This document shows, piece after piece, positions 5,041-55,004 of a DNA stretch of 64,000 nt. A program made the position numbers and the translations under genes. Position 1 is the first letter of the stretch; every line of letters starts with the position of its first letter. Below the pieces are notes generated by a model. The model saw nothing but the letters and a program-made list of their open reading frames with translations, was not told where the DNA came from and did not search any database. Source of the DNA: a virus (taxonomy: Duplodnaviria; Heunggongvirae; Uroviricota; Caudoviricetes); the IMG/VR virus record IMGVR_UViG_3300028042_000001, positions 92,944 to 156,943 of that record; one strand, given 5' to 3'.

Positions 5041-5068
5041 TTGACTTTAAATTTATATAGTGTATAGT
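5041..5068 (+). promoter_or_regulatory. sigma70-like promoter (TTGACT-16-TATAGT) with conserved leader, copy 1 of 3
   Basis: consensus-like -35/-10; followed by leader CATACTTGAGACAAACATTAATTATGGAGAACATAATG, which recurs at 53702 and 51799. Confidence 0.5.
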
Positions 5069-5108
5069 GTATTCATACTTGAGACAAACATTAATTATGG
5101 AGAACATA

Positions 5109-5471
5109 ATGACAATTGACGTAGAAAAATTTCTCAAAGAATATATGAATGAAATGGAAATTAGACTTAATCGATTAGAAAACAGCATTAAACCACGAGG
5201 AATTATATGTGGTCAGAATTGGATTGTTAGAGTTAAAGGTATTTGTGTTACTCCTGAATTTGATAAAGATGGTCAAACAACAGGTGTAGTTAAAAATAAT
5301 GATCCTGATCTTGTTATGAGATTTGTTCAAGAAGATGCTGAAATGCTTGCTTCTACAACAACTAACGGTGCTGGTGATAAAGGTGAATCTGTTATATGGG
5401 CAGATGCAGTAAGGGATTTAATTGAAGAACTTAAACCTCAACTTGAAATATTGAAGAATCGTAAAAAATAA
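5109..5471 (+). CDS. hypothetical protein (start chosen at second ATG, after GGAGA)
   Basis: ORF; RBS GGAGA lies 7 nt upstream of ATG 5109; the track start at 5067 is inside the conserved leader. Confidence 0.45.
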   Translation: MTIDVEKFLKEYMNEMEIRLNRLENSIKPRGIICGQNWIVRVKGICVTPEFDKDGQTTGVVKNNDPDLVMRFVQEDAEMLASTTTNGAGDKGESVIWADAVRDLIEELKPQLEILKNRKK

Positions 5472-5477
5472 ATAAAT

Positions 5478-5563
5478 GGATGCTGTCAGTAAGGTTAGAT
5501 GGTCTAACGGTTGGTTGTAACCCAACTCCCAAAGGGCATGAGGTTCGATTCCTCCGGTATCCA
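5478..5563 (+). tRNA. type II tRNA (apparent anticodon GTA; long variable arm)
   Basis: acceptor GGATGCT/GGTATCC (with G-U pairs), anticodon stem GTTGG/CCAAC with loop TTGTAAC, variable stem CCC/GGG, T-arm GAGGTTCGATTCCTC. Confidence 0.5.
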
Positions 5564-5918
5564 CAAAAATTGAGGTAGTATTATTATTATGTTTATACCA
5601 GATTGTATTATATATTCAGAAGTAAGACCGTCACCAATTATCACATATTATATCGTTGCTATGTTTGATCATAGTGGTGATTGTGATAAATGGCATTATA
5701 CTAATCCTGAAGTATGGGTATAAATTTAAAGAAGTAACGGATATATTATGAAATTAAAAAGATCAAAGATTAAAAAATTTCATGAAGGTGATGTGTATAA
5801 TTTCGTGAATGGTGTTGCAAAAGTTCCTAATATGTTTTTTGGTAGAGGTATAACAAGAGAACAAGCAACAGTATCATTAAAAGATTTTAATATTTTTATT
5901 AAAAAATAGATTATTTAT

Positions 5919-6095
5919 GCCACATTAGCTCAGTGGGTAGAGCGGTTGGAAAAGCGTCATAATTGATTTTTGTATTTAATATTGTATAATAGACTTAATT
6001 AATCCATTATACAATATGATTATAAGAATGATTGTACATAATTTCTTATAATGTTATTTAAATTAATTGCACAGGTTCGAATCCTGTATGTGGCT
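5919..6095 (+). tRNA. tRNA gene interrupted by ~110-nt AT-rich intervening sequence (possible intron)
   Basis: 5' part GCCACAT TA GCTCAGTGGGTAGAGC (acceptor plus D-arm); 3' part ACAGGTTCGAATCCTGT ATGTGGC, T-arm plus a perfectly complementary acceptor strand, about 130 nt downstream. Confidence 0.5.
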
Positions 6096-6216
6096 CATAG
6101 TATAAGTTGTCAAGTAGCTCTTGACTGATGTGGGAGTTTTTCAGTTCCTTCCTACAAAGAATATATAAGCGCTGATAATATTGCAATAATCGGTAATAAC
6201 TGACCAAATTTGTACA

Positions 6217-6292
6217 TCAGAATGTAGGCTAATGGTAAGCCCTTCCTCTTGGACAGGAAAAATTAGAGGTTCGAGTCCTCTCATTCTGACCA
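6217..6292 (+). tRNA. tRNA-Pro (anticodon TGG)
   Basis: acceptor TCAGAATG/CATTCTGA, anticodon stem TTCCT/AGGAA with loop CTTGGAC, T-arm AGAGGTTCGAGTCCTCT, CCA encoded. Confidence 0.75.
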
Positions 6293-6680
6293 TTTTTATT
6301 ATATTAAATAGATGATATCACAGTTGAGGGATATGAGAGTAGGATTTAATTCACAATCTCATTGAAATTACCTATGTATTACGAGGGTTGATCTCCTTAA
6401 TCTATTTGTTTTAGACCAATAATACTGATACGCAAGCGGTCTATTTAGTATAATATTTTTACTTGAATTAAAAATTAAAAAAAAAAGAGGATATTATGAA
6501 AATTTTTTGGAAAGTTGATGACGGATATGTTAATAATGTAGAGCATATGACTGAAATTCCTGATGAAGATTTGGAAGGAATGTCACCAGATGTTAGAAAA
6601 ATGGAAATTGATGAATGGGTTTCTGACGATTTCTCTCAAAATATTTCTTTTGAGATTATCAGAGAAGAATCATAATTAAT

Positions 6681-6856
6681 GTCCTTCGTTGGCTGTCGTA
6701 TGTGAATTTCCTTACAAGGAGCGCATATTAACCATGAATCGGATATGCGAAATTGTAAATACGGATCATGAACTGGTATTAACTTGATACCTGAAGATGG
6801 AACCCTGAAGCTACTGTAAGGGTAGATAAGGCAAGGTTCGATTCCTTGGAAGGGCA
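6681..6856 (+). other. tRNA-like element: T-arm plus acceptor 3' end, with complementary acceptor 5' strand 170 nt upstream (insertion or fragment)
   Basis: CAAGGTTCGATTCCTTG GAAGGGC A at 6832-6856 pairs with GTCCTTC at 6681-6687; intervening sequence has no canonical D/anticodon arms. Confidence 0.3.
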
Positions 6857-6880
6857 CATTTTAATTGACATTGCATGGGT

Positions 6881-6943
6881 ACAGGTGTACAATGAAAGCT
6901 CATATCTTTCATGTAGTGGGTTCGATACCCATACATGCAACCA
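6881..6943 (+). tRNA. tRNA-Met (anticodon CAT), compact D-arm
   Basis: acceptor TTGCATG/CATGCAA plus CCA; anticodon stem TGAAAG/CTTTCA with loop CTCATAT; T-arm GTGGGTTCGATACCCAT. Confidence 0.6.
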
Positions 6944-7026
6944 AAAATAATAATGATAATGTGAAAAAAAAAATGAATATATAATATTAGAAATGTTTAT
7001 AGTTGAAAAACCTGATCAGGAAATAT

Positions 7027-7100
7027 GGTCTTGTGGCTCATTGGTAGAGCGGTACGTTGTCAGCGTATTTTAAGAGGGTTCGATTCCCTTCAAGATCGCA
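7027..7100 (+). tRNA. tRNA-Asp (anticodon GTC)
   Basis: acceptor GGTCTTG/CAAGATC, D-arm GGCTCATTGGTAGAGC, anticodon loop TTGTCAG, T-arm GAGGGTTCGATTCCCTT. Confidence 0.75.
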
Positions 7101-7350
7101 TGAGGATTATTATTTAATTCTCTTTGATAGTAGGTACATACTGTTATTAATTTAACACCATGAACCGTGGGATGAAAAATATTCCCAAAAGTTTAGGGTA
7201 GAGAATGATCTTATTAACCATTTGATTATATCTATCCTTGGTGAAGATGCGAGAGTAGTAAGGTAGCTGTGGTGGTATATCTGAAATCAACCATTAGTAG
7301 CCTAAAAAATTATTGTTAGATTAATAACTATTCGATGAGTAGTTATTGAT

Positions 7351-7424
7351 GTGACAGTAGCTCAAAGGTTAGATCATGTGGCTGTGACCCACAAGATGAG
7401 GGTTCGATTCCCTCCTGTCACCCA
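7351..7424 (+). tRNA. tRNA-His (anticodon GTG)
   Basis: acceptor GTGACAG/CTGTCAC, D-arm TAGCTCAAAGGTTAGA, anticodon stem TGTGG/CCACA with loop CTGTGAC, T-arm GAGGGTTCGATTCCCTC, CCA. Confidence 0.75.
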
Positions 7425-7450
7425 TTTAAATTAAAAAGGATATATATTAT

Positions 7451-7771
7451 ATGAAAGTGATTGATGCAGGACATACATATTTACTTGATGATAACAAATC
7501 ACCAACAAATACTACAACATTAACATTTATGAAGGATGCTAAAATAAATGGAGATGGTTATGAAGGAACAACTAATCAGGAAGTTTTACGAGCATTAATA
7601 GATCGTATTAAATTTCTAGAAGGGCAAGTTCATCATAGATTTAATGATGATATTATTGGTCATCTTAGGATGGCATTGGTTCTTCATGAAGAACGACATT
7701 TAGAACGATTAGTAGAACGAGGAGAATCTATAGAAAATATTAAACCTAAAATTACTGGACATTTTGTATGA
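7451..7771 (+). CDS. hypothetical protein (106 aa)
   Basis: ORF with AAGGA RBS; ATGA overlap with the next gene. Confidence 0.45.
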   Translation: MKVIDAGHTYLLDDNKSPTNTTTLTFMKDAKINGDGYEGTTNQEVLRALIDRIKFLEGQVHHRFNDDIIGHLRMALVLHEERHLERLVERGESIENIKPKITGHFV

Positions 7772-8130
7772 ATAATAAGGAATTGTTATTTTCTATAACA
7801 AAGAAAGATTTTGATTTGTATTGGTTTTCTGGAACTGGTGCTGGTGGTCAAGGACGTAATAAGCTTCAGAACAGCCTTAGATTGTCTCATAGACCATCAG
7901 GAGCATCATCAACAGGGCAAAGTAGTAAAAGTAGAGTTGCTAATCAGAAAGAGGCATTTAAAGGTATTATGGAACATCCTAAGTTTAAGATGTGGTATAA
8001 TAAAAAAATTATGGAGTGCTTATATGAAGAAACAACTGAAGAAAAAATTAAAAAACAAATGATTCCTGATAATCTACGAATAGAAGGTAAAGATGATAAA
8101 GGTAGATGGAATAAAATTATAGAAGATTAG
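7768..8130 (+). CDS. ArfB/RF-1-domain-like GGQ-motif protein (putative peptidyl-tRNA hydrolase / ribosome rescue factor)
   Basis: FSGTGAGGQGRNKLQNSLRLSHRPSGASSTGQSSKSRVANQKEAF parallels the ArfB GGQ domain pattern (..GAGGQHVNKT.TAI.L.....Q.R....N), followed by a basic tail. Confidence 0.6.
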   Translation: MNNKELLFSITKKDFDLYWFSGTGAGGQGRNKLQNSLRLSHRPSGASSTGQSSKSRVANQKEAFKGIMEHPKFKMWYNKKIMECLYEETTEEKIKKQMIPDNLRIEGKDDKGRWNKIIED

Positions 8131-8193
8131 TCTAGGGGTTAAGGCATCTCGCTTACATCGAGAATAACACTGGTTCGAATCCAGTATCTTCTA
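8121..8193 (+). tRNA. tRNA-Val (anticodon TAC)
   Basis: acceptor AGAAGAT/ATCTTCT, anticodon stem TCTCG/CGAGA with loop CTTACAT, T-arm CTGGTTCGAATCCAG; 5' end overlaps the stop of the upstream CDS. Confidence 0.7.
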
Positions 8194-8201
8194 AATTATA
8201 T

Positions 8202-8423
8202 ATGGTGAATATTATGGCATTAGTTAATGGAAAGATTTTAAAAGGTGATGATTGTCCTTATAAGAATATTTGTGATTTTATGATAACTGCCTGTAATGGC
8301 GAAGGATGTCCATTTTTGTTTAAAGATAATCATTTTTGTGAGTTTTCTTGTGGTGCCTCTAGATTTTATGCTCTTATGGAAAAATCAGAAAAATCAGAAA
8401 AAAATAAATATAAGAGTAAATAA
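8202..8423 (+). CDS. hypothetical Cys-rich small protein
   Basis: ORF; several Cys residues, no recognisable motif; GAAAAATCA x2 repeat at 3' end. Confidence 0.4.
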   Translation: MVNIMALVNGKILKGDDCPYKNICDFMITACNGEGCPFLFKDNHFCEFSCGASRFYALMEKSEKSEKNKYKSK

Positions 8424-8443
8424 ATTAAAAGAGAGAATTTATT

Positions 8444-9454
8444 ATGAATTTTAGAAAATATAGTTCTATAGAAAATACATACAGAACAAAAACAATTAAT
8501 TATATTGTTGAATGTGGATATTCTTCTGGTATATGGGTTTCTTCTTTAAAAATTCATGGTGCTAATTATAGTTATTGGAGTGATGGTGATGTTGTAAAAA
8601 AAGCTAGAAAATCAGGATTTCTTGAAGGAGAATCATTTTATGGAGATTCAACATTTAATTATGATCAAAATATATTGAATATGTTTAACAATCTTAAAAA
8701 GCAAGGAGATTTTAGTACTCTTACTGTATATGGAGAAATATATGGAGGAATATACAATCATCCTAATGTAGAAGCTATTAAAAATGTTAAAAAAGTTCAG
8801 AAAGAGGTACAATATAGACCTGATGTTAATTTTATTGTTTTTGATATAAGAGTTGATGATATATTATTAGATCATTATACTGTTGTTGAATTATGTGATC
8901 AATTTGGATTTTTTCACGTACCTGTGTTGGGAATGGGATCTTTTTATGATTTAATGAAAACTCCTGTTGTATTTCCTGATCCTCTTGGTATAATGTTGGG
9001 TTATCCAAAGTTAGAAGATAATGATGCAGAAGGATGGGTGTTAAAACCTGTTATGCCAGAATTTTTTAATAATGGTTCAAGAGTTATTCTTAAAGGTAAA
9101 AATCCTTCCTTTTCTGAAAAAAATGGTGGAAAAAAAGGAAAAATTCATAATACAATAATTGAGATGTCAAAAGAAGGAGATTATATCAAAGAAGAATTAT
9201 TGTTATATATTAATGAAAACAGACTGAGAAATGTATTATCTCATGGGGAGATTTGTAAAATAACTCAAAAAGATTTTGGTAAATTATTAGGATTATTTTC
9301 TAAGGATATTTTTGTTGATTTTTTGAAAGATAATAAAGATAAATTTGATATTATTGATAAGAAAGAACAAATCACTATAAAGAGAATTATGAACAAAACT
9401 GCTGGTGATATTATCCGGTTAAATTTTCTAAATATTATAGATGGTGAATTTTAG
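8444..9454 (+). CDS. rnlB: RNA ligase 2 (T4 Rnl2-like)
   Basis: KYSSIEN N-terminus; nucleotidyltransferase motif I KIHGANYS (T4 Rnl2 KIHGTN); EGWVLKP..NNGSRVILKGKN.SFSEK and KDFGKLLGL blocks match T4 Rnl2 closely. Confidence 0.9.
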   Translation: MNFRKYSSIENTYRTKTINYIVECGYSSGIWVSSLKIHGANYSYWSDGDVVKKARKSGFLEGESFYGDSTFNYDQNILNMFNNLKKQGDFSTLTVYGEIYGGIYNHPNVEAIKNVKKVQKEVQYRPDVNFIVFDIRVDDILLDHYTVVELCDQFGFFHVPVLGMGSFYDLMKTPVVFPDPLGIMLGYPKLEDNDAEGWVLKPVMPEFFNNGSRVILKGKNPSFSEKNGGKKGKIHNTIIEMSKEGDYIKEELLLYINENRLRNVLSHGEICKITQKDFGKLLGLFSKDIFVDFLKDNKDKFDIIDKKEQITIKRIMNKTAGDIIRLNFLNIIDGEF

Positions 9455-9700
9455 ATGGATATTATAAAAACAGGAATTGATGTATTACTTGTTAGCTGTA
9501 TTAATGATAGTAATACATTAACTATAGGTGATGTTTATGAAGTTTTAATATATCAAAATATTCCTCTTGAAAATACATATACTATTGGTGTTATTAATGA
9601 TACTGGTATTTTTGCCAAATATGATGCTAAAACATTTTCTATGGTTTATATTAAACCTGATGTTATATTAAATGATCCTAAACCAGAAGGGCCATTATAA
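9455..9700 (+). CDS. hypothetical protein (81 aa)
   Basis: ORF abutting neighbours (TAGATG junction). Confidence 0.4.
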   Translation: MDIIKTGIDVLLVSCINDSNTLTIGDVYEVLIYQNIPLENTYTIGVINDTGIFAKYDAKTFSMVYIKPDVILNDPKPEGPL

Positions 9701-10168
9701 ATGTCTGCTATAGCTTTTTCTCAAAGTGCGTATGATGAATTTGATAGTAAAGGTAAAACCACAGTAAAACGGTTTTTTAAGTCAAAAGGATTTTTTTGTT
9801 ATCCTGATGATGAGGAACGAGGAATTGATCTTCATTTTTCAAAAAAAGATCATCCAGATATTTATATAGAAGTAGCGGTAAGACATTATTTTGATTGGCC
9901 GTTGTATGATTGGAAAATAAAAGCACCATGGGAAACAATTCATATTTTACGAAGAAAGGCTAAATATGGAAGACCTGAACCGTTTTGGTATGGCGATAAA
10001 GCATACTTATTCGAACTTAATAGAAGTATGGAACAAGCTTTTGTTATAAGACCTTGTGATTTACAAAAGAAATATTTAAAACTTCTAACTAATGTTCGTG
10101 GGAAGGAATGGATTTATGATATTCCTGTAGAAGAATTTAAAATATTTGATTTAAGAATGCATCAGTAG
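9701..10168 (+). CDS. hypothetical protein (155 aa)
   Basis: ORF; no recognisable motif. Confidence 0.45.
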   Translation: MSAIAFSQSAYDEFDSKGKTTVKRFFKSKGFFCYPDDEERGIDLHFSKKDHPDIYIEVAVRHYFDWPLYDWKIKAPWETIHILRRKAKYGRPEPFWYGDKAYLFELNRSMEQAFVIRPCDLQKKYLKLLTNVRGKEWIYDIPVEEFKIFDLRMHQ

Positions 10169-10234
10169 TCAAATTGGATTGGCACAAGATTACGAATCTT
10201 GATTGATGTGGGTTCGACTCCCATCTGGTGCTCA
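10159..10234 (+). tRNA. tRNA-Arg (anticodon ACG)
   Basis: acceptor GCATCAG/CTGGTGC, anticodon stem CAAGA/TCTTG with loop TTACGAA, T-arm TGGGTTCGACTCCCA. Confidence 0.6.
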
Positions 10235-10240
10235 AAATAT

Positions 10241-10316
10241 GCGTCTGTAGCTCAGTTGGAAGAGCACGAGATTTCTACTCTCGGTGTCGGAGGTTCGATC
10301 CCTCTCAGGCGTTCCA
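10241..10316 (+). tRNA. tRNA-Arg (anticodon TCT)
   Basis: acceptor GCGTCTG/CAGGCGT, D-arm TAGCTCAGTTGGAAGAGC, anticodon stem CGAGA/TCTCG with loop TTTCTAC, T-arm GGAGGTTCGATCCCTC, CCA. Confidence 0.75.
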
Positions 10317-10339
10317 TAATTAATATAAAGGAGGATGAT

Positions 10340-10840
10340 ATGGAAAGGGTGATAGTGTTAAATTATGATTATAGTTTTCTAAATGTTGTTTCTCCTGAAA
10401 AGGCTTTTTCTTATATAGCTCGTGGAAAGGTTATTGTTGAAAAAGTAGCGGATAAGGTCTTGACAACTGCTGAAAAATCATTTAAAATACCTGTAATTGT
10501 TCGGTTCTCTTATATGATAAGACAAATATATAAGAGAAAAATACCATGGAGTAAGCGTAATGTGTGTATCAGAGATAATTATACCTGTGCATACTGTGGT
10601 GTAAAAAGTGATATAATGACAGTTGATCATGTTATACCTAAAGCTCATGGAGGAAAAAACACTTTTGATAATTGTGTTGCATCATGTAAGAAATGTAATA
10701 ATAAAAAAGGTGATAAAACATGTAAAGAAATAGGAATGTTTCCTTCTCATAATAGAACACATCCTACTGTTTCTGACTTCATGCGATTATGGTATAAACA
10801 ATATAATGTAAATGATATTATAAAATCAATATGGGAGTGA
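10340..10840 (+). CDS. HNH endonuclease
   Basis: CAYCGVKSDIMTVDHVIPKAHGGKNTFDNCVASCKKCNNKKG HNH motif; RBS AAGGAGGA; the track ORF start at 10199 is translated tRNA sequence, so the start was moved to the ATG at 10340. Confidence 0.75.
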   Translation: MERVIVLNYDYSFLNVVSPEKAFSYIARGKVIVEKVADKVLTTAEKSFKIPVIVRFSYMIRQIYKRKIPWSKRNVCIRDNYTCAYCGVKSDIMTVDHVIPKAHGGKNTFDNCVASCKKCNNKKGDKTCKEIGMFPSHNRTHPTVSDFMRLWYKQYNVNDIIKSIWE

Positions 10841-10844
10841 TAAT

Positions 10845-11057
10845 ATGAGTACAACTGCATTAGATATACAAAAATTTAATTTATGCGAATATAAAGCTAG
10901 AGAAAATGATATTATTATTGATGTTAAATCTGAAGGATTTTTATTGACAAGAAGATCAGATTATTGTATACTTGGAAAAATCTTAACTGTAGAAGAGATG
11001 TATAGTTATTTTTGTGGTTATGAATCAGGATTAGATAAGGGGTTGTCTGATAGTTAA
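10845..11057 (+). CDS. hypothetical protein (70 aa)
   Basis: ORF only. Confidence 0.35.
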   Translation: MSTTALDIQKFNLCEYKARENDIIIDVKSEGFLLTRRSDYCILGKILTVEEMYSYFCGYESGLDKGLSDS

Positions 11058-11078
11058 ATATTAATACGAGGGTATATT

Positions 11079-11486
11079 ATGAATTTTAATCCATATGGTG
11101 TTTGGGAAGTTACTACAGAAGGTGATTGTGAAGGAAGAAGCATAACACATCTTGGTACATTTACGGGTTATTTTGATGTTATAGCTTTAAATCTTGCAAA
11201 ATCTTGTTATTATACTCTTGATTTTAAAAGAATTGATATTGGTAATAATTTAGTTCCTACAAAAAATGAAGTGTCTGTTCGTATTTGGGAAATGGGAAAC
11301 AATATTAAACAATACGAACAATTATTAACAGATCGTGATGTTTATATTAAAGAAAGTAAATTTTTTAAATCTGTTATTATTTGCACTAATAATCCTATAT
11401 CTGAGGAAGAAGCAGAAGCATTAAAAGCTAGAAACTTACTTATTGAAAAAGGCTTTGATGTTGAATCAATAAAAAAATATATATAG
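11079..11486 (+). CDS. hypothetical protein (135 aa)
   Basis: ORF with GAGGG RBS. Confidence 0.45.
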   Translation: MNFNPYGVWEVTTEGDCEGRSITHLGTFTGYFDVIALNLAKSCYYTLDFKRIDIGNNLVPTKNEVSVRIWEMGNNIKQYEQLLTDRDVYIKESKFFKSVIICTNNPISEEEAEALKARNLLIEKGFDVESIKKYI

Positions 11487-11491
11487 TATAT

Positions 11492-11563
11492 GTCTATGTT
11501 CGATGGTTCGGTGTGCTGTCTGCAAAATAGTAAATAAGGGTTCGATTCCCTTCATAGACTCCA
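11492..11563 (+). tRNA. tRNA-Cys? (anticodon GCA)
   Basis: acceptor GTCTATG/CATAGAC perfect; anticodon loop CTGCAAA with a G-U-containing stem; T-arm AAGGGTTCGATTCCCTT; CCA. Confidence 0.55.
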
Positions 11564-11567
11564 ACAT

Positions 11568-11664
11568 GGTATGTGCCGACCAAAGGTGGTCAGCAAGATT
11601 TGAAATCTTGTGGCATGTCTGATGAGGGCATGGGGTTCAATTCCTACACATACCGCATTAATTA
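11568..11664 (+). tRNA. tRNA-Ser (anticodon TGA), type II
   Basis: acceptor GGTATGTG/CACATACC, anticodon stem CAAGA/TCTTG with loop TTTGAAA, long variable arm GGCATG..CATGCC-like, T-arm GGGGTTCAATTCC. Confidence 0.75.
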
Positions 11665-11710
11665 AATATATAGTATATTTAATAATATATAATATAAAAA
11701 GGAGATTATT

Positions 11711-12157
11711 ATGAGGTATGAAGGATGTACAAGTGAAACAGATGCAATAGTAGAAGATATTACAAGAGAAGAATTTCCAAATCTTGATGGAGCAAATATT
11801 ATGATTGTTATGGATACCAAAAAAAAGGTATCTGGTGGTCGTTATGTTATTGCACGTATTAAGAAAATGAATGATGAATTAAAGTTTTTTACTGCTAACG
11901 ATTATGGTATTACATATGATTATGTAATGTTTATAGATAAAGTTATTTTTGATGAGCTTAATTATGATGATAAAAAAAGAATAATTTATCATGAATTATG
12001 TCATTGTGAAGTTGATCCTAGTAAAAATAATCCTTATGGGATAAAAGATCATGAAATTCAAGGATTCCATGATGAATTATCTTATAATGAAGATGATCCT
12101 AGATGGAATGAACGGGTTAGTGCTGTTGCTGAATCTATTTATGATGATGACGAATAA
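11711..12157 (+). CDS. hypothetical protein with HExxH motif (possible metallopeptidase-like)
   Basis: YHELCHCE contains HExxH; AAGGAG RBS; acidic C-terminus. Confidence 0.4.
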   Translation: MRYEGCTSETDAIVEDITREEFPNLDGANIMIVMDTKKKVSGGRYVIARIKKMNDELKFFTANDYGITYDYVMFIDKVIFDELNYDDKKRIIYHELCHCEVDPSKNNPYGIKDHEIQGFHDELSYNEDDPRWNERVSAVAESIYDDDE

Positions 12158-12182
12158 TATACAAAATAATACACATTAACTA

Positions 12183-12211
12183 TTGACTTTATATTTAATG
12201 TGTATTATAAT
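12183..12211 (+). promoter_or_regulatory. sigma70-like promoter TTGACT-17-TATAAT followed by inverted and direct repeats
   Basis: consensus -35/-10; downstream IR AATAACCATTAT/ATAATGGTTATT and direct repeat ATTATGGTAGTTAATGAT x2. Confidence 0.45.
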
Positions 12212-12316
12212 AACCATTATGGTAGTTAATGATTACTATAATGGTTATTATGGTAGTTAATGATCATGAAGCAGAAACACCAGAAGTACAAGAAGAAATA
12301 ATAAAATAAAAAATAT

Positions 12317-12390
12317 GGCTCGTTAGCTCATTGGAAGAGCGTTTGGCTGATCACCAAAAGAGATAGGATCGTTACCTGTACGAGCTACCA
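12317..12390 (+). tRNA. tRNA-Ile? (anticodon GAT)
   Basis: acceptor GGCTCGT/ACGAGCT, D-arm TAGCTCATTGGAAGAGC, anticodon stem TTTGG/CCAAA with loop CTGATCA, CCA; T-loop non-canonical. Confidence 0.55.
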
Positions 12391-12472
12391 CATAAAAATG
12401 AACCTCTATTTATATTTATACAAATGGAAATAGAGGTTCATAATATGATTAGTTATAAAAGAGTAAAAAAAT

Positions 12473-12560
12473 GACCATGGGTGGTTCGTCTAATTAGGGA
12501 GGACACTTACCCGTTATGTGGTTTGAAATATAGGTTCGATTCCTATACGATTCATGGTCA
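12473..12560 (+). tRNA. long tRNA-like element (88 nt)
   Basis: perfect acceptor pairing GACCATG/CATGGTC and T-arm ATAGGTTCGATTCCTAT; internal arms not resolvable by eye. Confidence 0.35.
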
Positions 12561-13051
12561 TTTTTTTATTACTAAGGATATATCATGATAAAACACATAA
12601 TTCTGCTGATGTGTTTGTGATGGATATTGCTCAAACATATGATGGATTAAAAGTTATAGAGTATAATACATTTAATTCTGCTGGATTATATGCCTGTGAT
12701 GTTGGTAATATAATTGATGGTATAAACAATTTCTTACAAGAACCATGTTGAGGTTCATTACCTCTTCATGAGAACGGACTATGCGTAAGTAGTCTTCCTA
12801 AGTGGTACGCAACCATGTAGGGCAAAATCAATAAGTCTTTTTGAAGGACATGTGTTGATGTTGTGGTGAAAATCCATATTACGATCCAATGGGGCTATAC
12901 TTGGGAGGACTGAATGGCTTGCAACCAATCGGGCAGGGTTCAATTCCCTGTAGTTCCACAATATATTTTTCAGCGATATCAGCCACTAAAGCTGATAACG
13001 GTGTTCTTAATCACTTAACAGAATGCGAAGGAGTAGTGACCGGACTGAAAC

Positions 13052-13125
13052 GCTACATGGTGAAATGTTATCACAAAGGGATATATGACCCTTAGTTTCA
13101 GGTTAAATTCCTGATGTAGCAACCA
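13052..13125 (+). tRNA. tRNA-like with apparent 8-nt anticodon loop (ATATATGA)
   Basis: acceptor GCTACAT/ATGTAGC, D-stem GTGA/TCAC, anticodon stem AAGGG/CCCTT enclosing 8 nt, T-arm TCAGGTTAAATTCCTGA. Confidence 0.4.
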
Positions 13126-13133
13126 TTTTTAAT

Positions 13134-13217
13134 GGAAGTATGGCAGAGTATGGTAATGTACCTGATTGCTAATCAGTGGTCAAGGAAACTTGCGTAGGTT
13201 CGAATCCTACTACTTCC
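13134..13217 (+). tRNA. tRNA-Ser (anticodon GCT), type II
   Basis: acceptor GGAAGTA/TACTTCC, D-arm TGGCAGAGTATGGTAATG, anticodon stem CTGA/TCAG with loop TTGCTAA, long variable arm, T-arm GTAGGTTCGAATCCTAC. Confidence 0.7.
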
Positions 13218-13272
13218 TCATATTATGATTATCATGTAGATAATATTAAATTAATTCAAAAGGAGAGTTATT

Positions 13273-13617
13273 ATGGAAGGAGTAGATTTCCCAAAAGTAA
13301 ATAAAGAAGAAGATCAAGGTCAAGGTCAAGAGGCATTTACAGTTTCTGCTGAAATGCTTTTAGCTCAAATTGTACAGGCTGTTGGGGAAGAATTTGTTAT
13401 TATTCCAACTTCAGGATGGCAAAAAATTGTTACTACTATTCAAGATTATTCTAAATCAGCACAAAATTCACTCACAAATGATGAAGATTTACTAAAAATT
13501 TTAGAAGGTCTTGGTATTCCTGTAATTCCTGTTAGTCTTGCACCAAAACAGGAAGAAAGCCTTATTATTATGCCAAATGATACACCTAAAGGCGAATCTA
13601 AAATAATTATTCCATAA
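13273..13617 (+). CDS. hypothetical protein (114 aa)
   Basis: ORF with AAGGAG RBS. Confidence 0.45.
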   Translation: MEGVDFPKVNKEEDQGQGQEAFTVSAEMLLAQIVQAVGEEFVIIPTSGWQKIVTTIQDYSKSAQNSLTNDEDLLKILEGLGIPVIPVSLAPKQEESLIIMPNDTPKGESKIIIP

Positions 13618-13664
13618 ATTATGTTTTATATGCGTTAATGAAATTTATAAAAAAAAGGTAAATA

Positions 13665-14603: not shown

Positions 14604-14682
14604 CTTGACAAATATAATCTCATATTGTATGATAATTTATCAACAATACAAAATATTAATATTACAATATGAGAGGTTTATT

Positions 14683-15057
14683 ATGATTGAAGACTTAATA
14701 ATGGCTAAGAAATATATATCAAAAGCAAACAGAGCATCAAAAAAAGGATTAGATTTTACACTTACTTTTGCTCAATATAAAAGGTTGATGTCTAGAAAAA
14801 CTTGCGCTTATTCTGGTCTTAGATTTTCTGAAATTAATGAAAAACGTGCATGGAAAAATGAATGGTTAGGACTTACTCTTGATCGTATTGATAATAGTAA
14901 AGGATATATTCAAGGTAACGTGGTTCCTGTGTGTAATGGAGTTAATCAATTAAAAGGACAGTGGGAAAATCCTCTTCTTCCTTTTGATGAAAAAACAACT
15001 ATAAAAATCATTACAAAAATTATGTTAGCTAAGAATAATCTTGACATTCTTGATTAG
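14683..15057 (+). CDS. HNH-family endonuclease (LDRIDN..GN type)
   Basis: LTLDRIDNSKGYIQGNVVPVCNGVNQLKGQW motif; start moved to the ATG after GAGAGG RBS; TTGACA-17-TATGAT promoter at 14605. Confidence 0.6.
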   Translation: MIEDLIMAKKYISKANRASKKGLDFTLTFAQYKRLMSRKTCAYSGLRFSEINEKRAWKNEWLGLTLDRIDNSKGYIQGNVVPVCNGVNQLKGQWENPLLPFDEKTTIKIITKIMLAKNNLDILD

Positions 15058-15750: not shown

Positions 15751-15760
15751 CTAATAGAAA

Positions 15761-50870: not shown

Positions 50871-51142
50871 TGTTTATTAATATAGAAATTGTTGTTGTTA
50901 TTATTATATTTATTATTATATTTATCATACATATGGGTAATAATATTAATATGCTTGTAGATATAGTTGAAAAACAAACAAAATCATTAACATTACTTAA
51001 TGATAGATTAAATAATCATAAACAACATATAAATTATATAGTAGAAAGTACTAAACCTATCATTAAATATATTTATATGTATGGTACAGATAAAGATATA
51101 AAAGATCTTAAACAAGCGTTGCAACGATGGGGTGATGAATAA
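50870..51142 (+). CDS. hypothetical membrane-anchored protein
   Basis: N-terminal hydrophobic INIEIVVVIIIFIIIFIIH. Confidence 0.35.
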   Translation: MFINIEIVVVIIIFIIIFIIHMGNNINMLVDIVEKQTKSLTLLNDRLNNHKQHINYIVESTKPIIKYIYMYGTDKDIKDLKQALQRWGDE

Positions 51143-51818
51143 TATGATGCACAAATTTAAACAGCATATTTATGATGATGTGGGGAGAATTTATGAATTT
51201 GATAATGGTAGTCGGTATTATAGTGTAACTACTGCATTGGGTGCTACAGGAGATAAAAGCTTCCTTGATGCATGGAAGAAACGATTAGGCAAGCAACGAG
51301 CAGAGGCAGAACTAAAATATGCCGGGGATATTGGTACTCAAATGCATGAATCTCTTGAATATTATCTTATATATAAAGAAGAGCCTGAAAATTATCCAAA
51401 TTCTGTTGTTAAAAATCTTTCTAAACAAATCATTCCATATCTTGATCGTAATGTTTCTGATGTTTTTGCTACAGAAAAGGTATTATATTCTAATAATCTT
51501 AAATTAGCTGGTACTGCTGATGGAATTGTTCATTATCGACTAAAATCAGGTATTTTTCCTGTTATTCTTGATTTTAAAACATCTAAAAAATTAAAACAAA
51601 TTAAATGGATGCATGATTATTTTCTTCAGTTGGCTATATATGCTATTATGATGGAAGAATTATATGGTCAGCCTATAAATTCTGGTGTATTATTATTTGC
51701 ATACAAACAAGTACGGAATATAAATAAAGAATTTATCGTTAATTTAACAAAGTATAAACAAATTGCTATAAAAAGAATAGAAATGTTTCATAAAATGATT
51801 GACATATCTGTTAAATAG
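51132..51818 (+). CDS. PD-(D/E)XK nuclease (RecB/Cas4/lambda-exo-like fold)
   Basis: motifs MHESLE, AGTADGIVHY, ILDFKTSKK (DxK), QLAIYAIM (QxxxY). Confidence 0.6.
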   Translation: MMNNMMHKFKQHIYDDVGRIYEFDNGSRYYSVTTALGATGDKSFLDAWKKRLGKQRAEAELKYAGDIGTQMHESLEYYLIYKEEPENYPNSVVKNLSKQIIPYLDRNVSDVFATEKVLYSNNLKLAGTADGIVHYRLKSGIFPVILDFKTSKKLKQIKWMHDYFLQLAIYAIMMEELYGQPINSGVLLFAYKQVRNINKEFIVNLTKYKQIAIKRIEMFHKMIDISVK

Positions 51819-51826
51819 TGTATAAT
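51799..51826 (+). promoter_or_regulatory. sigma70-like promoter TTGACA-16-TATAAT with conserved leader, copy 2 of 3
   Basis: followed by CATACTGATTGAGACATACATTTTATTATGGAGAACATTATGAC, homologous to the leaders at 5069 and 53730. Confidence 0.5.
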
Positions 51827-51870
51827 GATTACATACTGATTGAGACATACATTTTATTATGGAGAACATT

Positions 51871-52443
51871 ATGACTGATGAGCAGAAGATTAAGAGACTT
51901 GAAGAAATTCAAAAAACAATATTTGATCTAGCAGAAAAAGCAGAGAATGTTATAATTTCTTATGGATCTGCTAATGATGTTCGATCTGCTCTTCTTCAGA
52001 TCAGGAAAGAAAGTTTGAATTTATTTGAAGTTGTTTCTGATATTGAGATTGAATTTAATAATTCTAAAGAAGATCCTTCCAATGATGGTATAGTTCCTTT
52101 TGAAGAAGATGAATTAACGCCTCTAATTAAAGATCATACTTGTAGTAAAGATGATGATCGTGTTATTATATTTTTTACTGGTGCTAAGAAAATTAATAAA
52201 AAACATAATGAGAAGTTTTTCCCTAATGTTCCTCTTGATAAATTTCGTATGACTCAAGGAAAACGATATATTAAAGTAATTCGTGGTGGAAGTGTTCATT
52301 GTTTTATTGACCGCATCAATGGTGATGTATTAAAAGCGGCTTCGTGGAATGCTCCTGCAAAACATGCCCGTGGTAATATATGGGATGATGATAATGGTCT
52401 TAATTGTATGTCTGAATATGGTGCGGCTTACCTTAGAGGATGA
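51871..52443 (+). CDS. hypothetical protein
   Basis: ORF; start taken at the second ATG after GGAGA (alternative in-frame start at 51859). Confidence 0.45.
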   Translation: MTDEQKIKRLEEIQKTIFDLAEKAENVIISYGSANDVRSALLQIRKESLNLFEVVSDIEIEFNNSKEDPSNDGIVPFEEDELTPLIKDHTCSKDDDRVIIFFTGAKKINKKHNEKFFPNVPLDKFRMTQGKRYIKVIRGGSVHCFIDRINGDVLKAASWNAPAKHARGNIWDDDNGLNCMSEYGAAYLRG

Positions 52444-52955
52444 TATGACTATTATTATTAGTATAGGTGCGCCTAATCCTGTAATATATGATGTTTTTAA
52501 AGATGATGATCGTGTTATTATTGTTGATGATAACACGATTAAAGGAGAAGATATTGATATGATGAATGCAAGGATACATAAATTTGAATTGATTGATTAT
52601 GATTATGATTATTTTGAGAAATATACTGAATATGATTGGAACCAATTATCAAATGATGTAAATTCTATTAATATTTTATTAATTATATCAAAGATGTTTA
52701 TTTGTAAAATTTTTGTAACTTATTTTATTAGTTATTGGTGTTGTAATAAAATGATGTTTAGTGTTAGTGGGTATTTACCTAAAAAAATAAGGGAAAATAA
52801 AAAATGAAAAATGCACAACTTGTAATGGTGATTTTGTTGATAATTGAATTTTTTGCACATAATAATAGATTAAATAAATTTAATAGTAAAGGATCATCAG
52901 GAATAAATTTATTATCTTCTATTATAAGGATGTCTGTTATTATCGGTGTTCTTTA

Positions 52956-53234
52956 TTGGGGAAATTTCTGGATATGAAACATTTTAATTATGAATCAATA
53001 TGTAAAGAATTATTAAATCTTCTTATAATAAAAATAAGCGAGTCTTGTGATGATTGTGAATATCTTAATTATTCTACATCAGCTATAAGCTCTTATTGTG
53101 AAAGTTCATTAAGTCCTATGAATAATGGATTTATGGATGGAGAATATGGGTGTAAATATCATTCACAAATTATTAAATTAAAAAAAACATATTCAATTAT
53201 ATTGGATGAAACAAAACAGGAGAATAAATTATGA
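52956..53234 (+). CDS. hypothetical Cys-rich protein
   Basis: ORF. Confidence 0.35.
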   Translation: MGKFLDMKHFNYESICKELLNLLIIKISESCDDCEYLNYSTSAISSYCESSLSPMNNGFMDGEYGCKYHSQIIKLKKTYSIILDETKQENKL

Positions 53235-53318
53235 TCGATGATATAATTATGTATTGTGATGAATGTGGATGGGTTACTATTGATGCAGAAGATGTTCATA
53301 TTACCATGAATTTAAAAA

Positions 53319-53681
53319 ATGATAACGTTGAATATAATGATACATGTTCTAATGATGATTGTGATTGTAGATTATTTAATTCAAGGAGAGCACATGTATA
53401 ATGTTAATGAGGAAAATTATGATGATGGTGTTGATTTTGCAGATGGTGATTGGTCTGATGGATGGCATGAACGTTGCGGTAACACATTATTTAAAGAAAA
53501 ATCTATATACGCTTTAACATTTATGGAATTTAGAGATAAAGAATTTATTTGTATATTTAAAGATGGTGATTTTTCTCCATTAGCATCTATTCATGGTAAT
53601 TATGATGTTGTTTATCCTCCTCTTTTGCCCCTTTGTAATCAATTAAGGATAACATCAGTAAAGAAATATTCATGTGCATAA
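53319..53681 (+). CDS. hypothetical protein
   Basis: ORF; true start probably at the internal ATG near 53394 after GGAGAG. Confidence 0.35.
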   Translation: MITLNIMIHVLMMIVIVDYLIQGEHMYNVNEENYDDGVDFADGDWSDGWHERCGNTLFKEKSIYALTFMEFRDKEFICIFKDGDFSPLASIHGNYDVVYPPLLPLCNQLRITSVKKYSCA

Positions 53682-53701
53682 TTAATTAATAAATAATGTG
53701 C

Positions 53702-53729
53702 TTGACTTTTATGATAAGTAGTGTATAAT
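53702..53729 (+). promoter_or_regulatory. sigma70-like promoter TTGACT-16-TATAAT with conserved leader, copy 3 of 3
   Basis: followed by CATACTTGAGACAAACATTACTTATTATGGAGACTACATCATGA; here the first ATG opens a 5-codon mini-ORF overlapping the main start. Confidence 0.5.
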
Positions 53730-53774
53730 ATATCCATACTTGAGACAAACATTACTTATTATGGAGACTACATC

Positions 53775-55004
53775 ATGATCAATTCAGTTATTACTTCTTA
53801 TTACCTCGAATCATTTAAAACTGATCTTAAAATTGCATGTAAAAAGATGAAAGTTGATTATGATGTGGTTGTTGGAGAAAAACGTGTAATTGCTTCTATT
53901 CCTTATAATCAAGCAGATACTTCATCATTTTCTTCTTTTTATGATGTTTGGGGATATGATGTAGTTATCAATATTCATGATATTGATAAAATGACTGATA
54001 CTGGTTATGAATATCTTGGCTGTATTAAAGATGATGGATTATTGTCTGTTCATCCTAATGATAATGCTGATTTTGATATATCTTCTATGGATCAAATTAA
54101 AACCTTTCCTTGTGATCGTTGTGGTCGCAATCATTCTCGTAATATAATTCATGTTTTTCGTAAAGATGGTAAAGTTACCGTTTATGGATCTACATGTGCA
54201 AAAACTAAATTTGGTATTGATGTTAATGTTTTGATTGCTAAATTTAGTAAAATTAAAGAGCAATTTGGGTTTGCTGATTATGATGATATGGATACTTATG
54301 GTGGATTTGGTAAAGGATGGAAATTCATTAATGCAGATATCTTTATTCCTATGTCATATTATGAGATTGTAGAACATGGTTATGTATCTGCATCTAAAGT
54401 ATATGATGATGGATGTGGTATATCTACTGCTGAAACTGTTGAAAGTGATTATTTTCAAATGATTGATGGTAATAATACTATCAGAAAGGAATTTGATTGG
54501 AATACAAATAATATCGAATTTGATTTTGACGATTTTATGGTATGGGCGAAAGGATTTATCAATGATATGGATTCTAATGATTTTAAGTTCAATATGGAAG
54601 GTGCATTTACCTCTATAGAAGAAGGATATGTTCATCCTCGTACTAAAGGGTTTGTATCATATCTTGCATTTAAATTTTGGTATGACAATAAAAAAGTATG
54701 TATTCCTATAGATACTTTTAATGAAGATTATTCTGATATGCCTATTGGTTTTAAATTTAAGAATCTCACAGTAGAAATTATTAATGAATATACTTTTGAA
54801 GGAAATTATGGAACAACTCATATTTACACTATGAAAGGTGTTGATGATGGTGTAAAATATAAATGGTTTGCATCAAAAGAATTAGATACTAATTATATTC
54901 ATATACTAACATCAGGCACTGTTAAGGATCATGAAAATGATGTTCGTTATGGTAAATCATGTGTTATTACTCGATGCAGAGCAAAAGCTATAGTAGAGGA
55001 CTGA
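53775..55004 (+). CDS. hypothetical protein (410 aa) with CxxC..C Zn-binding patch
   Basis: ORF; CDRCGRNHSRN..CAKT; start set at the ATG after GGAGA. Confidence 0.45.
   Translation: MINSVITSYYLESFKTDLKIACKKMKVDYDVVVGEKRVIASIPYNQADTSSFSSFYDVWGYDVVINIHDIDKMTDTGYEYLGCIKDDGLLSVHPNDNADFDISSMDQIKTFPCDRCGRNHSRNIIHVFRKDGKVTVYGSTCAKTKFGIDVNVLIAKFSKIKEQFGFADYDDMDTYGGFGKGWKFINADIFIPMSYYEIVEHGYVSASKVYDDGCGISTAETVESDYFQMIDGNNTIRKEFDWNTNNIEFDFDDFMVWAKGFINDMDSNDFKFNMEGAFTSIEEGYVHPRTKGFVSYLAFKFWYDNKKVCIPIDTFNEDYSDMPIGFKFKNLTVEIINEYTFEGNYGTTHIYTMKGVDDGVKYKWFASKELDTNYIHILTSGTVKDHENDVRYGKSCVITRCRAKAIVED

What the first reader, a model, noticed from the sequence alone, without database searches (positions are those of the whole stretch)
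5041..53776. Triplicated promoter plus 5' leader cassette driving three unrelated genes
Three loci share a near-consensus sigma70 promoter, each followed by the same ~40-nt leader. The loci are 5041-5108, 51799-51870 and 53702-53774. The promoter is TTGAC(T/A) N16 TATA(A/G)T, preceded by TAGTG. The leader is CATACT(GAT)TGAGACA(A/T)ACATT..TTATTATGGAGA(A/C).. and ends in an ATGGAGAAC/ATG start context. In the third copy the first ATG instead opens a 5-codon mini-ORF (METTS-stop) that overlaps the main start by ATGA. The downstream proteins are unrelated. The conserved leader is therefore a shared cis-regulatory RNA element, an operator or translational control site, which suggests a small co-regulated regulon.
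Basis: seen in the sequence. Interest (0 to 1): 0.55.

Follow-up and report, generated by a model that had tools for sequence, protein, structure and literature searches.

The report
Repeated phage early promoter cassette
Three unrelated genes of an uncultivated T4-like phage share a host-type promoter whose first 16 transcribed bases are as conserved as the promoter itself, a pattern already known from strong early promoters of phage T5 and from the promoter cassettes of T4-like phages.

Summary
Three sites (5041-5111, 51799-51873, 53702-53777) share TTGAC(T/A)-N16-TATA(A/G)T, five variable bases, then CATAC(TGA)TTGAGACA, a variable stretch, GGAGA and ATG.

The window is a 29% GC, distant T4-like phage.

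The same cassette sits before the orthologous genes in related metagenomic phages. There the 13-base CATAC+TTGAGACA block stays 11-13/13 identical, while third codon positions, the promoter spacer and the rest of the leader have drifted. It is therefore under selection and is not just a recent duplication.

The block keeps a fixed distance from the -10 box but a variable distance from the ribosome-binding site. It has no RNA structure, no Rfam match and no copies away from promoters. I read it as the initial transcribed sequence of one subclass of strong early promoters, not as a translational operator.

T5-like phages show the same design (TATAAT-N6-ATAAATTTGAGAGA). Gene content between copies differs among relatives, as with PeSL cassettes, but the PeSL stem-loop is absent.

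The mini-ORF is a coincidence, because its ATG is not conserved.

Verdict: a new member of a known kind, of modest interest.

The parts
5041..5068 (+). Copy c1 promoter: -35 TTGACT (5041-5046), 16-bp spacer ending in TAGTG, -10 TATAGT (5063-5068). It lies directly after tRNA-Tyr (4928-5012).
5074..5089 (+). Copy c1 conserved start-site and initial transcribed block CATACTTGAGACAAAC. The predicted start is A at 5075, 7 nt after the -10.
   Evidence: the start site is inferred from spacing, not measured
5099..5111 (+). Copy c1 Shine-Dalgarno GGAGA (5099-5103) and true start codon ATG (5109-5111).
   Evidence: gene aa
5109..5471 (+). Gene downstream of c1: 120 aa, no Pfam or NCBIfam family, one weak PHROG hit of unknown function.
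51799..51826 (+). Copy c2 promoter: TTGACA, 16-bp spacer, TATAAT (12 of 12 consensus bases). The -35 overlaps the 3' end of the PD-(D/E)XK exonuclease gene (51132-51818).
51832..51850 (+). Copy c2 conserved block CATAC-TGA-TTGAGACATAC, the variant with a 3-nt insertion.
51861..51873 (+). Copy c2 Shine-Dalgarno GGAGA (51861-51865) and true start ATG (51871-51873).
51871..52443 (+). Gene downstream of c2: 190 aa, DUF7717 (PF24835).
53702..53729 (+). Copy c3 promoter: TTGACT, 16-bp spacer, TATAAT.
53735..53750 (+). Copy c3 conserved block CATACTTGAGACAAAC.
53709..53766 (+). Copy c3 only: a 17-18 bp inverted repeat. The promoter spacer TTTATGATAAGTAGTGT pairs with the leader ACATTACTTATTATGGA, bracketing the -10 box and the conserved block. 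It could form only in read-through RNA. It is not a feature of the whole family.
   Evidence: z = -2.6; other copies z about 0
53763..53777 (+). Copy c3 Shine-Dalgarno GGAGA (53763-53767) and true start ATG (53775-53777). The ATG at 53761 opens the non-conserved METTS mini-ORF.
53775..55004 (+). Gene downstream of c3: 409 aa, phrog_2319 (unknown function), conserved Cys motif. The C-terminal beta-domain gives weak OB-fold-like matches.

Best explanation
The three sites belong to one subclass of host-RNA-polymerase (sigma-70-type) early promoters of a T4-like phage, each packaged as a small cassette.

The cassette holds, in order:
- a near-consensus -35 and -10 with a 16-bp spacer;
- a variable 5-nt discriminator;
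- a start-site motif C(-1)A(+1)T;
- a conserved initial transcribed sequence ATAC(TGA)TTGAGACA(A)AC (+1 to about +16);
- a short unstructured A/U-rich leader;
- a strong GGAGA ribosome-binding site and the ATG.

The conserved 'leader' is best read as part of the promoter. It would fix the start site and set how efficiently polymerase leaves a very tight promoter, so that each gene behind it is expressed strongly and at once after infection, independently of upstream transcription.

The cassette also serves as repeated homology at module boundaries in a hyperplastic region. Genes have been gained, lost and moved there between relatives, as in PeSL-type shuffling.

Shown here: the repetition, the block-wise purifying selection, the fixed distance to the -10 box, the lack of RNA structure, the cassette-associated differences in gene content, and the same design in T5-like phages.

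Inferred: that transcription starts here, that it is early, and that the block acts through start-site choice or promoter escape.
For: 1. Phage context. The gp43-type DNA polymerase is 41% identical to those of cyanomyophages. RNase H, RNA ligases, 22 tRNAs and one-strand gene order are present.

2. Orthologous conservation, using relatives found through the c3 protein and not through the motif.
- The cassette lies before the c3 orthologues in L006, L188, L008, L186 and L007.
- It also lies before the DUF7717 orthologues in L008 and L186.

3. Block-wise selection.
- The CATAC+TTGAGACA block is 13/13, 13/13, 12/13 and 11/13 identical.
- In the three relatives at 55-57% protein identity (L008, L186, L007): third codon positions 43-49%, spacer 5-7/16, discriminator 0-1/5, late leader 4-9/14.
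- In the close relative L006 (79% protein identity) these same flanks are much less diverged: 59%, 13/16, 4/5 and 11/14.
- The DUF7717 orthologues are only 35-43% identical in protein, yet 13/13 in the block.
- Information content per column: -35 1.45 bits, -10 1.72, CATAC 2.0, TTGAGACA 1.85, against spacer 0.79, discriminator 0.51 and the later leader 0.35-0.75.

4. The block is always 5 nt after the -10 box but 10-15 nt (more than 60 in L152) before the Shine-Dalgarno.

5. There is no structure, no covariation and no Rfam family. No copy occurs away from a promoter or in antisense.

6. A T5-like phage carries five early promoters sharing TATAAT-N6-ATAAATTTGAGAGA. The T5 N25 and T7 A1 sequences were verified as exact.

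7. For N25 the initial transcribed sequence changes productive output up to 25-fold (PMC12464699). Initial transcribed sequences control promoter escape, above all at consensus-like promoters (PMC5961368, PMC10911233).

8. T4 early promoters are known to carry consensus beyond the -35, TGn and -10 elements (PMC2988021).

9. Gene content between cassettes differs among relatives. L008 has three extra ORFs and two extra cassettes between the exonuclease gene and DUF7717. One of these ORFs lies at 56091-56444 in the window.
Against: - There are no transcript data, so neither the start site nor the timing is measured.
- The host is unknown, so 'sigma-70' rests on consensus only.
- About 20 other consensus-like promoters in the window lack this block. 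It is therefore not needed for promoter function in general, which leaves room for a subclass-specific regulator.
- T6-G7 in the block matches a motif reported to cause pausing during initial transcription (PMC10911233). The block could therefore slow escape and not speed it.
- The information-content figures include two members (L147, L152) that were found with a pattern containing the motif itself.
- Only about 80 of the 153 kb of the source contig could be read.
Confidence: 0.6

Rival explanations
1. The +1 to +16 block is the binding site of a specific trans-acting factor. This could be a phage or host protein acting as an operator on DNA, or a factor that recognises the 5' end of the RNA. 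It would switch this promoter subclass on or off together, giving a true regulon.
For: - Only a subclass of the phage's promoters carries the block.
- That subclass also shares a 16-bp spacer and TAGTG before the -10 box, whereas most other promoters have 17 bp.
- The block is as conserved as the -10 box.
- Conservation starts exactly at the predicted start site, as expected for a 5'-terminal RNA motif.
- How T4 shuts off its early promoters is still unexplained (PMC2988021).
Against: - The block is not palindromic and has no repeat structure typical of operators.
- No candidate regulator was identified.
- T5-like phages, which are unrelated, have a very similar TTGAGA-containing block at the same place. 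That is easier to explain by a shared constraint from RNA polymerase than by a shared regulator.
- In the 44% GC relative L147, a DUF7717-like ORF that matches only the C-terminal half of the c2 protein (50% over 91 aa) is preceded by a shortened variant, ATACTGAACAA.
Confidence: 0.2
2. The similarity is only a by-product of recombination. The cassettes would be PeSL-like homology patches copied or homogenised by gene conversion, and the leader sequence itself would have no function.
For: - Repeated cassettes lie at module boundaries, and gene content between them differs among relatives.
- The TGA-insertion state does not follow orthology. The window has c2 with it and c3 without; L008 has it in both; L186 has it in neither; the L188 c3 orthologue has it. 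This suggests exchange between copies or recurrent slippage.
- PeSL recombination has been shown experimentally in RB49 and phi1 (PMC2839356).
Against: - Copying alone would conserve the spacer, the discriminator and the late leader equally. Instead these have diverged to near-random while the 13-nt block stays 85-100% identical between genomes.
- Homogenisation within a genome cannot keep different genomes alike.
Confidence: 0.08
3. The leader is a translational control element. It could be a structured RNA, a protein-binding translational operator at the ribosome-binding site, or an upstream mini-ORF coupled to the main start.
For: - The Shine-Dalgarno GGAGA is conserved.
- c3 has a mini-ORF overlapping the start.
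- c3 also has an inverted repeat that would bury part of the Shine-Dalgarno in read-through RNA.
Against: - There is no consensus structure and no paired columns. Fold z-scores are not significant for c1 and c2.
- The upstream ATG is absent in L006, L008a and L186.
- The distance from the conserved block to the Shine-Dalgarno varies.
- The sequence around the start codon is not conserved beyond GGAGA.
- No Rfam family matches.
Confidence: 0.05

Closest known systems
PeSL (promoter-early stem-loop) cassettes of T4-like phages (Arbiol et al. 2010, PMC2839356; Comeau et al. 2014, PMC4122927)
   Same: - Small repeated cassettes in hyperplastic regions of T4-like genomes.
- Each holds a near-consensus sigma-70 promoter with the Shine-Dalgarno and ATG of the next gene at its 3' end, in front of unrelated small genes.
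- Insertions, deletions and gene displacement between relatives coincide with cassette positions.
   Different: - No stem-loop or terminator lies next to the promoter.
- The hallmark here is a conserved initial transcribed block, which the PeSL papers do not describe.
- Mini-circle formation and recombination were not tested.
Early promoters of phage T5 (PN25 and relatives) with their conserved initial transcribed sequence
   Same: - A family of very strong host-polymerase promoters within one phage.
- They share the -35 and -10 boxes and also the first roughly 14 transcribed bases: TATAAT-N6-ATAAATTTGAGAGA in a T5-like phage, against TATAAT-N5-C-ATAC(TGA)TTGAGACA here.
- Both have CAT at the start and TTGAGA a few bases downstream.
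- For N25 this region strongly modulates productive initiation (PMC12464699).
   Different: - The phage lineage is unrelated, and the sequences are similar but not homologous in any demonstrable way.
- The position of TTGAGA differs by 2 nt (+5 to +10 here, +7 to +12 in T5).
- The function of the block here is inferred, not measured.
T4 early promoters (UP/-35/TGn/-10 'uber' promoters; Hinton 2010, PMC2988021)
   Same: - They are recognised by unmodified host polymerase immediately after infection.
- Their alignments show consensus outside the canonical elements.
- Many precede non-essential genes of unknown function.
   Different: - The -35 here is TTGAC(A/T), not T4's GTTTAC-type.
- The TG abuts the -10 box and is not a canonical TGn.
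- The spacer is 16 bp.
T4 hairpin-sequestered ribosome-binding sites with an internal promoter (lysozyme gene e, soc, I-TevI; from my own knowledge of the T4 literature)
   Same: In c3, and in the SprT copy outside the window, the promoter lies inside an inverted repeat. Only read-through RNA could fold and cover the region just before the Shine-Dalgarno.
   Different: - The T4 cases use late promoters.
- Here the hairpin is found in 2 of 11 copies and is not conserved in orthologues, so it does not explain the shared leader.

Membership tests
PeSL cassette (T4-like phages) | Located in a T4-like myovirus genome, in a hyperplastic region of small variable genes | tested here: met
   T4-type DNA polymerase, RNase H and RNA ligases are present. 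Many small ORFs of unknown function surround c2 and c3, and their content varies among relatives.
PeSL cassette (T4-like phages) | Strong sigma-70-like early promoter (-35 and -10 boxes) | tested here: met
   10 to 12 of 12 consensus bases with a 16-bp spacer. This is by sequence only; activity was not measured.
PeSL cassette (T4-like phages) | Adjacent stem-loop acting as a terminator, just upstream of the promoter | tested here: not met
   The 60 nt upstream of the -35 box fold no better than shuffles in all 11 copies (z from -1.2 to +1.0). No terminator-like site was found.
PeSL cassette (T4-like phages) | Shine-Dalgarno and start codon of the downstream gene at the 3' end of the element | tested here: met
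   GGAGA lies 5-7 nt before the ATG in all three copies.
PeSL cassette (T4-like phages) | Insertions, deletions or replacements between close relatives coincide with the elements | tested here: met
   L008 has three extra ORFs and two extra cassettes between the exonuclease gene and DUF7717, and one ORF is displaced. The relatives are distant, so exact breakpoints cannot be mapped.
PeSL cassette (T4-like phages) | Recombination between copies produces mini-circles | not testable with these tools
   This needs inverse PCR on infected cells or on virion DNA.
Strong phage early promoter with a conserved initial transcribed sequence (T5 N25 type) | Several promoters in one phage share the first 10-20 transcribed bases as well as the core elements | tested here: met
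   Three copies plus one diverged copy in this phage; 2-4 copies in the relatives L008 and L186.
Strong phage early promoter with a conserved initial transcribed sequence (T5 N25 type) | The conserved block is positioned relative to the start site, not relative to the ribosome-binding site | tested here: met
   It is always 5 nt after the -10 box, and 10 to more than 60 nt before the Shine-Dalgarno.
Strong phage early promoter with a conserved initial transcribed sequence (T5 N25 type) | The block changes abortive/productive initiation or promoter strength | not testable with these tools
   This needs in vitro transcription or reporter assays. It is known for N25 (PMC12464699).
Cis-regulatory leader RNA (riboswitch, attenuator or protein-binding structured leader) | Conserved secondary structure supported by covariation | tested here: not met
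   RNAalifold predicts 0 pairs on 10 leaders. Single-sequence z-scores are not significant. No Rfam hit was found.
Upstream-ORF or translational coupling element | Upstream start codon and short ORF conserved in relatives | tested here: not met
   The ATG is replaced by GCG, ACG, CAC or AAG in L006, L186 and L008a.

The most novel reading that the evidence does not exclude
The +1 to +16 block (ATACTTGAGACAAAC) could be the recognition site of a still unknown phage factor. That factor would act on the DNA or on the 5' end of the nascent RNA, and would switch one subclass of early promoters on or off together. This would be a dedicated early-shutoff or timing mechanism in a lineage of T4-like phages, for which no such operator is known.
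Probability: 0.15. Interest if true: 0.6.

Novelty: new member of a known kind. Interest (0 to 1): 0.3.

Why it matters
The finding gives a clean comparative case that the first roughly 16 transcribed bases can be under selection as strong as on the -10 box itself, in uncultivated phages. This supports the view that the initial transcribed sequence belongs to the definition of a promoter.

The resemblance to the T5 early promoters (CAT start, TTGAGA a few bases in) hints at a general recipe for very strong host-polymerase promoters. That recipe could be tested and used in expression design.

The finding also extends the idea of promoter cassettes at module boundaries to a distant, low-GC branch of T4-like phages that lacks the PeSL stem-loop.

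It does not reveal a new kind of regulatory system.

Tried and rejected
1. Near-identity BLAST of the c2-c3 region against GenBank phages found nothing.

2. An exact-pattern scan of IMG/VR with the late leader (TTGAGACAWACATT...TGGAGA) gave only two chance hits inside coding sequence.

3. My single metagenome scan used a pattern with one T too many (CATACT + TTGAG). It could match only the c2-type variant, so almost all 119+ hits are chance. That scan is spent.

4. The corrected pattern on IMG/VR and on GTDB genomes gave mostly chance hits. Only L147 and L152 are real family members.

5. The search for related loci in IMG/VR found nothing for the c3 protein, the c3 alignment or the c1 protein. 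For c2 it found one distant locus.

6. Three look-ups of proteins from the first 3 kb of the window were 'not on record'. Only about 80 of the contig's 153 kb could be read.

7. Ideas considered and dropped:
- A second promoter inside the leader: the spacing is wrong.
- A MotA-box middle promoter: no TGCTT box is present and the -35 is perfect.
- Complementarity to another site in the window: no antisense match.
- A family-wide hairpin bracketing the -10 box: found only in c3 and the SprT copy.
- A sigma-dependent pause from the -10-like CATACT: possible, but the element order differs from lambda PR' and it cannot be tested here.

8. A structure prediction of the c3 protein gave only weak OB-fold-like matches (E >= 0.007), which are not enough to assign a function.


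Full report
**What is there.** Each has this layout:
- TTGAC(T/A), a 16-bp spacer ending in TAGTG, and TATA(A/G)T;
- five variable bases;
- CATAC, an optional TGA (c2 only), and TTGAGACA(A/T)ACATT;
- 6-9 variable bases, then TGGAGA, 5-7 bases and ATG.

c1 and c3 share an exact 19-mer. Only 0.05 matches are expected by chance even with three mismatches allowed. A profile of the three copies recovers them at E of about 1e-19 to 1e-20, and nothing else in the window comes close. The three downstream proteins are unrelated to each other:
- c1: 120 aa, no family;
- c2: 190 aa, DUF7717;
- c3: 409 aa, phrog_2319, with a weak OB-fold-like C-terminal domain.

**Context.** The window has 29% G+C and all its genes lie on the + strand. 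It carries 22 tRNA genes, a T4-type DNA polymerase 41% identical to those of cyanomyophages, RNase H, two RNA ligases, ribonucleotide reductase and a CCA-adding enzyme. It is therefore a distant, uncultivated T4-like phage. It matches a 152.6-kb ENA metagenome contig exactly, apart from one insertion or deletion near 63912. The window holds about 20 further intergenic TTGACA-N17-TATAAT promoters, each with a different leader. The three sites are thus a subclass, marked by the 16-bp spacer, the TAGTG and the shared downstream block.

**Corrections to the description.**
- The real start codons are the second ATGs (5109, 51871, 53775), as in the gene calls on the source contig.
- 'ATGGAGA' is AT plus the Shine-Dalgarno GGAGA.
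- The METTS mini-ORF of c3 exists, but its ATG is not conserved. Orthologous or paralogous copies read GCGGAGA, CACGGAGA, ACGGAGA or AAGGAGA.
- The TG directly abuts TATAAT, so this is not the canonical TGn extended -10.

**More copies and relatives.** A diverged fourth copy lies about 1.7 kb before the window start, in front of a SprT-like protease gene. I found homologues of the c3 protein and fetched their contigs. This route does not depend on the motif.
- The cassette lies in front of the c3 orthologue in L006 (79% protein identity), L188 (57%), L008 (56%), L186 (53%) and L007 (53%). It has largely decayed in L187 (37%).
- It also lies in front of the DUF7717 orthologue in L008 and L186.
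- L008 has four copies within 4 kb.
- Two higher-GC relatives from IMG/VR (L147, L152; 43-44% GC) carry CATACGATTGAGACAG. L147 encodes a ribonucleotide reductase 61% identical to the window's. Both also carry many promoters with a shortened variant, GGATACTGAACAA(C/T)AAC.

**Selection, not just duplication.** Table 1 compares the window's c3 cassette with its orthologues.

Table 1. Identity to the window's c3 cassette and gene, by segment.

| Segment | L006 | L008 | L186 | L007 |
|---|---|---|---|---|
| CATAC+TTGAGACA block (13 nt) | 13/13 | 13/13 | 12/13 | 11/13 |
| -10 box | 5/6 | 6/6 | 6/6 | 6/6 |
| Third codon positions of the downstream gene | 59% | 43% | 46% | 49% |
| Promoter spacer | 13/16 | 7/16 | 7/16 | 5/16 |
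| Discriminator | 4/5 | 0/5 | 0/5 | 1/5 |
| Next 14 leader bases | 11/14 | 4/14 | 6/14 | 9/14 |

The DUF7717 orthologues are only 35-43% identical in protein, yet 13/13 in the block. Table 2 gives information content per column over 12 copies. Two of the 12 copies were found with a pattern containing the motif, so those figures are slightly inflated. The orthologue comparison in Table 1 is not affected.

Table 2. Mean information content per column over 12 copies.

| Segment | Bits |
|---|---|
| -35 box | 1.45 |
| -10 region | 1.72 |
| CATAC | 2.0 |
| TTGAGACA | 1.85 |
| Spacer | 0.79 |
| Discriminator | 0.51 |
| Beyond +17 | 0.35-0.75 |

Simple copying or gene conversion would conserve all segments alike. 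This pattern means purifying selection on +1 to about +16.

**What kind of element.**
- The block always begins 5 nt after the -10 box, so the A of CATAC falls where transcription is expected to start.
- Its distance to the Shine-Dalgarno varies from 10 to 15 nt, and exceeds 60 nt in L152.
- The leaders have no significant fold, and ten aligned leaders give zero consensus pairs.
- No Rfam family matches.
- The motif never occurs away from a promoter or in antisense.

The element is therefore tied to the promoter and start site, not to translation initiation. It is not a structured RNA.

**Closest known designs.**
1. *T5 early promoters.* I recalled the T5 PN25 sequence and verified it as an exact 52/52 match in T5-like genomes. 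In one such genome, five early promoters share TATAAT-N6-ATAAATTTGAGAGA. This is the same design: a CAT start and TTGAGA a few bases downstream. The T7 A1 promoter, also verified, starts ATCGAGAGGGACAC. For N25 the initial transcribed sequence changes productive output up to 25-fold (PMC12464699). Such sequences control promoter escape, especially at consensus-like promoters that hold the polymerase tightly (PMC5961368, PMC10911233).
2. *T4 early promoters.* They are known to carry consensus beyond the canonical elements (PMC2988021).
3. *PeSL cassettes of T4-like phages* (PMC2839356, PMC4122927). These are repeated promoter, Shine-Dalgarno and ATG units at module boundaries in hyperplastic regions. 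Here, too, gene content between copies differs among relatives. L008 has three extra ORFs and two extra cassettes between the PD-(D/E)XK exonuclease gene and DUF7717. One of those ORFs lies downstream of the c3 gene (56091-56444) in the window and in L006. The TGA-insertion state does not follow orthology, which suggests exchange between copies or recurrent slippage. The defining PeSL stem-loop is absent, however. I therefore do not file these as PeSLs, although they may play the same evolutionary role.

**Most likely mechanism.** This is a subclass of strong early promoters whose functional unit runs from -35 to about +16. It is followed by an unstructured leader and a strong ribosome-binding site, and it gives immediate, autonomous expression of whichever gene sits behind it. 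I put this at about 0.6.

The main rival, at about 0.2, is that the block binds a specific factor that co-regulates the subclass. In favour of the rival, most promoters in the phage lack the block. Against it, the block is not palindromic, no regulator was identified, and unrelated T5-like phages have nearly the same block.

A pure recombination relic (0.08) and a translational element (0.05) are largely excluded by the data above.

**Limits.**
- There are no transcript data.
- The host is unknown.
- Only about 80 of 153 kb of the genome could be read.
- One large database scan was wasted on a mistyped pattern.

**Verdict.** The thing itself is a new member of a known kind, of modest interest.

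Noticed in passing
window 2854-2920, 12183-12250, 14605-14670, 29020-29075, 37560-37625; also L004 at about window 65851: Many other sigma-70-like promoters in this phage lie inside long inverted repeats. One arm is in the promoter spacer and the other just after the -10 box, for example TTGACATAAGAGATT...AATCTCTTATGTCAA at 37560. Of 20 promoters, 8 fold with z < -2, against 10 of 60 random windows; the extreme values are -8.5, -5.7 and -5.4. This could be a composite terminator-promoter in which the hairpin forms only in read-through RNA.
   Followed up: partly
window 29020-29060: The promoter TTGACA-N17-TATAAT ends 8 nt before the ATG of the 339-aa ORF (29057-30076), with no Shine-Dalgarno. 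The mRNA may be leaderless, and the start codon lies in the 3' arm of an inverted repeat.
   Followed up: no
window 56477-58681: The RtcB RNA ligase gene is split into two ORFs (56477-56953 and 57989-58681) by a LAGLIDADG homing endonuclease ORF (57198-57992). RtcB is uninterrupted in relatives L006, L007 and L188, and split in the same way in L187.
   Followed up: partly
window 13051-13125 and 40115-40186: ARAGORN reports a tRNA with a four-base anticodon (atat), which may be a frameshift suppressor or an artefact. It also reports an isolated tRNA-Asn with the unusual anticodon ATT, far from the main tRNA cluster. Rfam confirms only the latter as a tRNA (48.6 bits).
   Followed up: no
window 1-16000: A dense tRNA cluster of 21 genes is interleaved with RNA-repair and translation-related genes. 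These include RNA ligase 2 (8444-9454), an RF-1 domain protein (7768-8130), HNH endonucleases, and a protein matching the Gad2 Pfam family, PF26128 (13665-14603). A CCA-adding enzyme lies at 36165-37556.
   Followed up: no
L009, L012, L013, L017, L022, L037, L048 and others (marine metagenome and IMG/VR contigs): A recurrent marine viral locus carries TTGACT-N17-TATAAT-ATCCG-CATACTTTGAGAAA in front of a gene with remote similarity to the NAD-dependent DNA ligase of T5-like phages. It has the same start-site and TTGAGA design in yet another phage group. It was found by a motif pattern, so the match is partly circular.
   Followed up: partly
window 63912: The window and the ENA contig k141_26344 are identical from 43775 to 63911 and then go out of register. 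There is therefore an insertion or deletion at about 63912. A second contig of 156,943 bp (JGI) also encodes the c3 protein, so the window probably comes from a different assembly of the same phage.
   Followed up: partly
window 34096-34466: The 269-aa ORF (33895-34704) contains tandem 12-nt and 18-nt repeats, which encode low-complexity Asn/Asp/Ser/Gly-rich runs.
   Followed up: no
window 41260-41317: The promoter TTGACA-N16-TATAAT is followed by GAATACATGTTTGATATAA, which is 64% identical to c1 over 59 nt. It may be a decayed member of the same cassette family, or a chance resemblance.
   Followed up: partly
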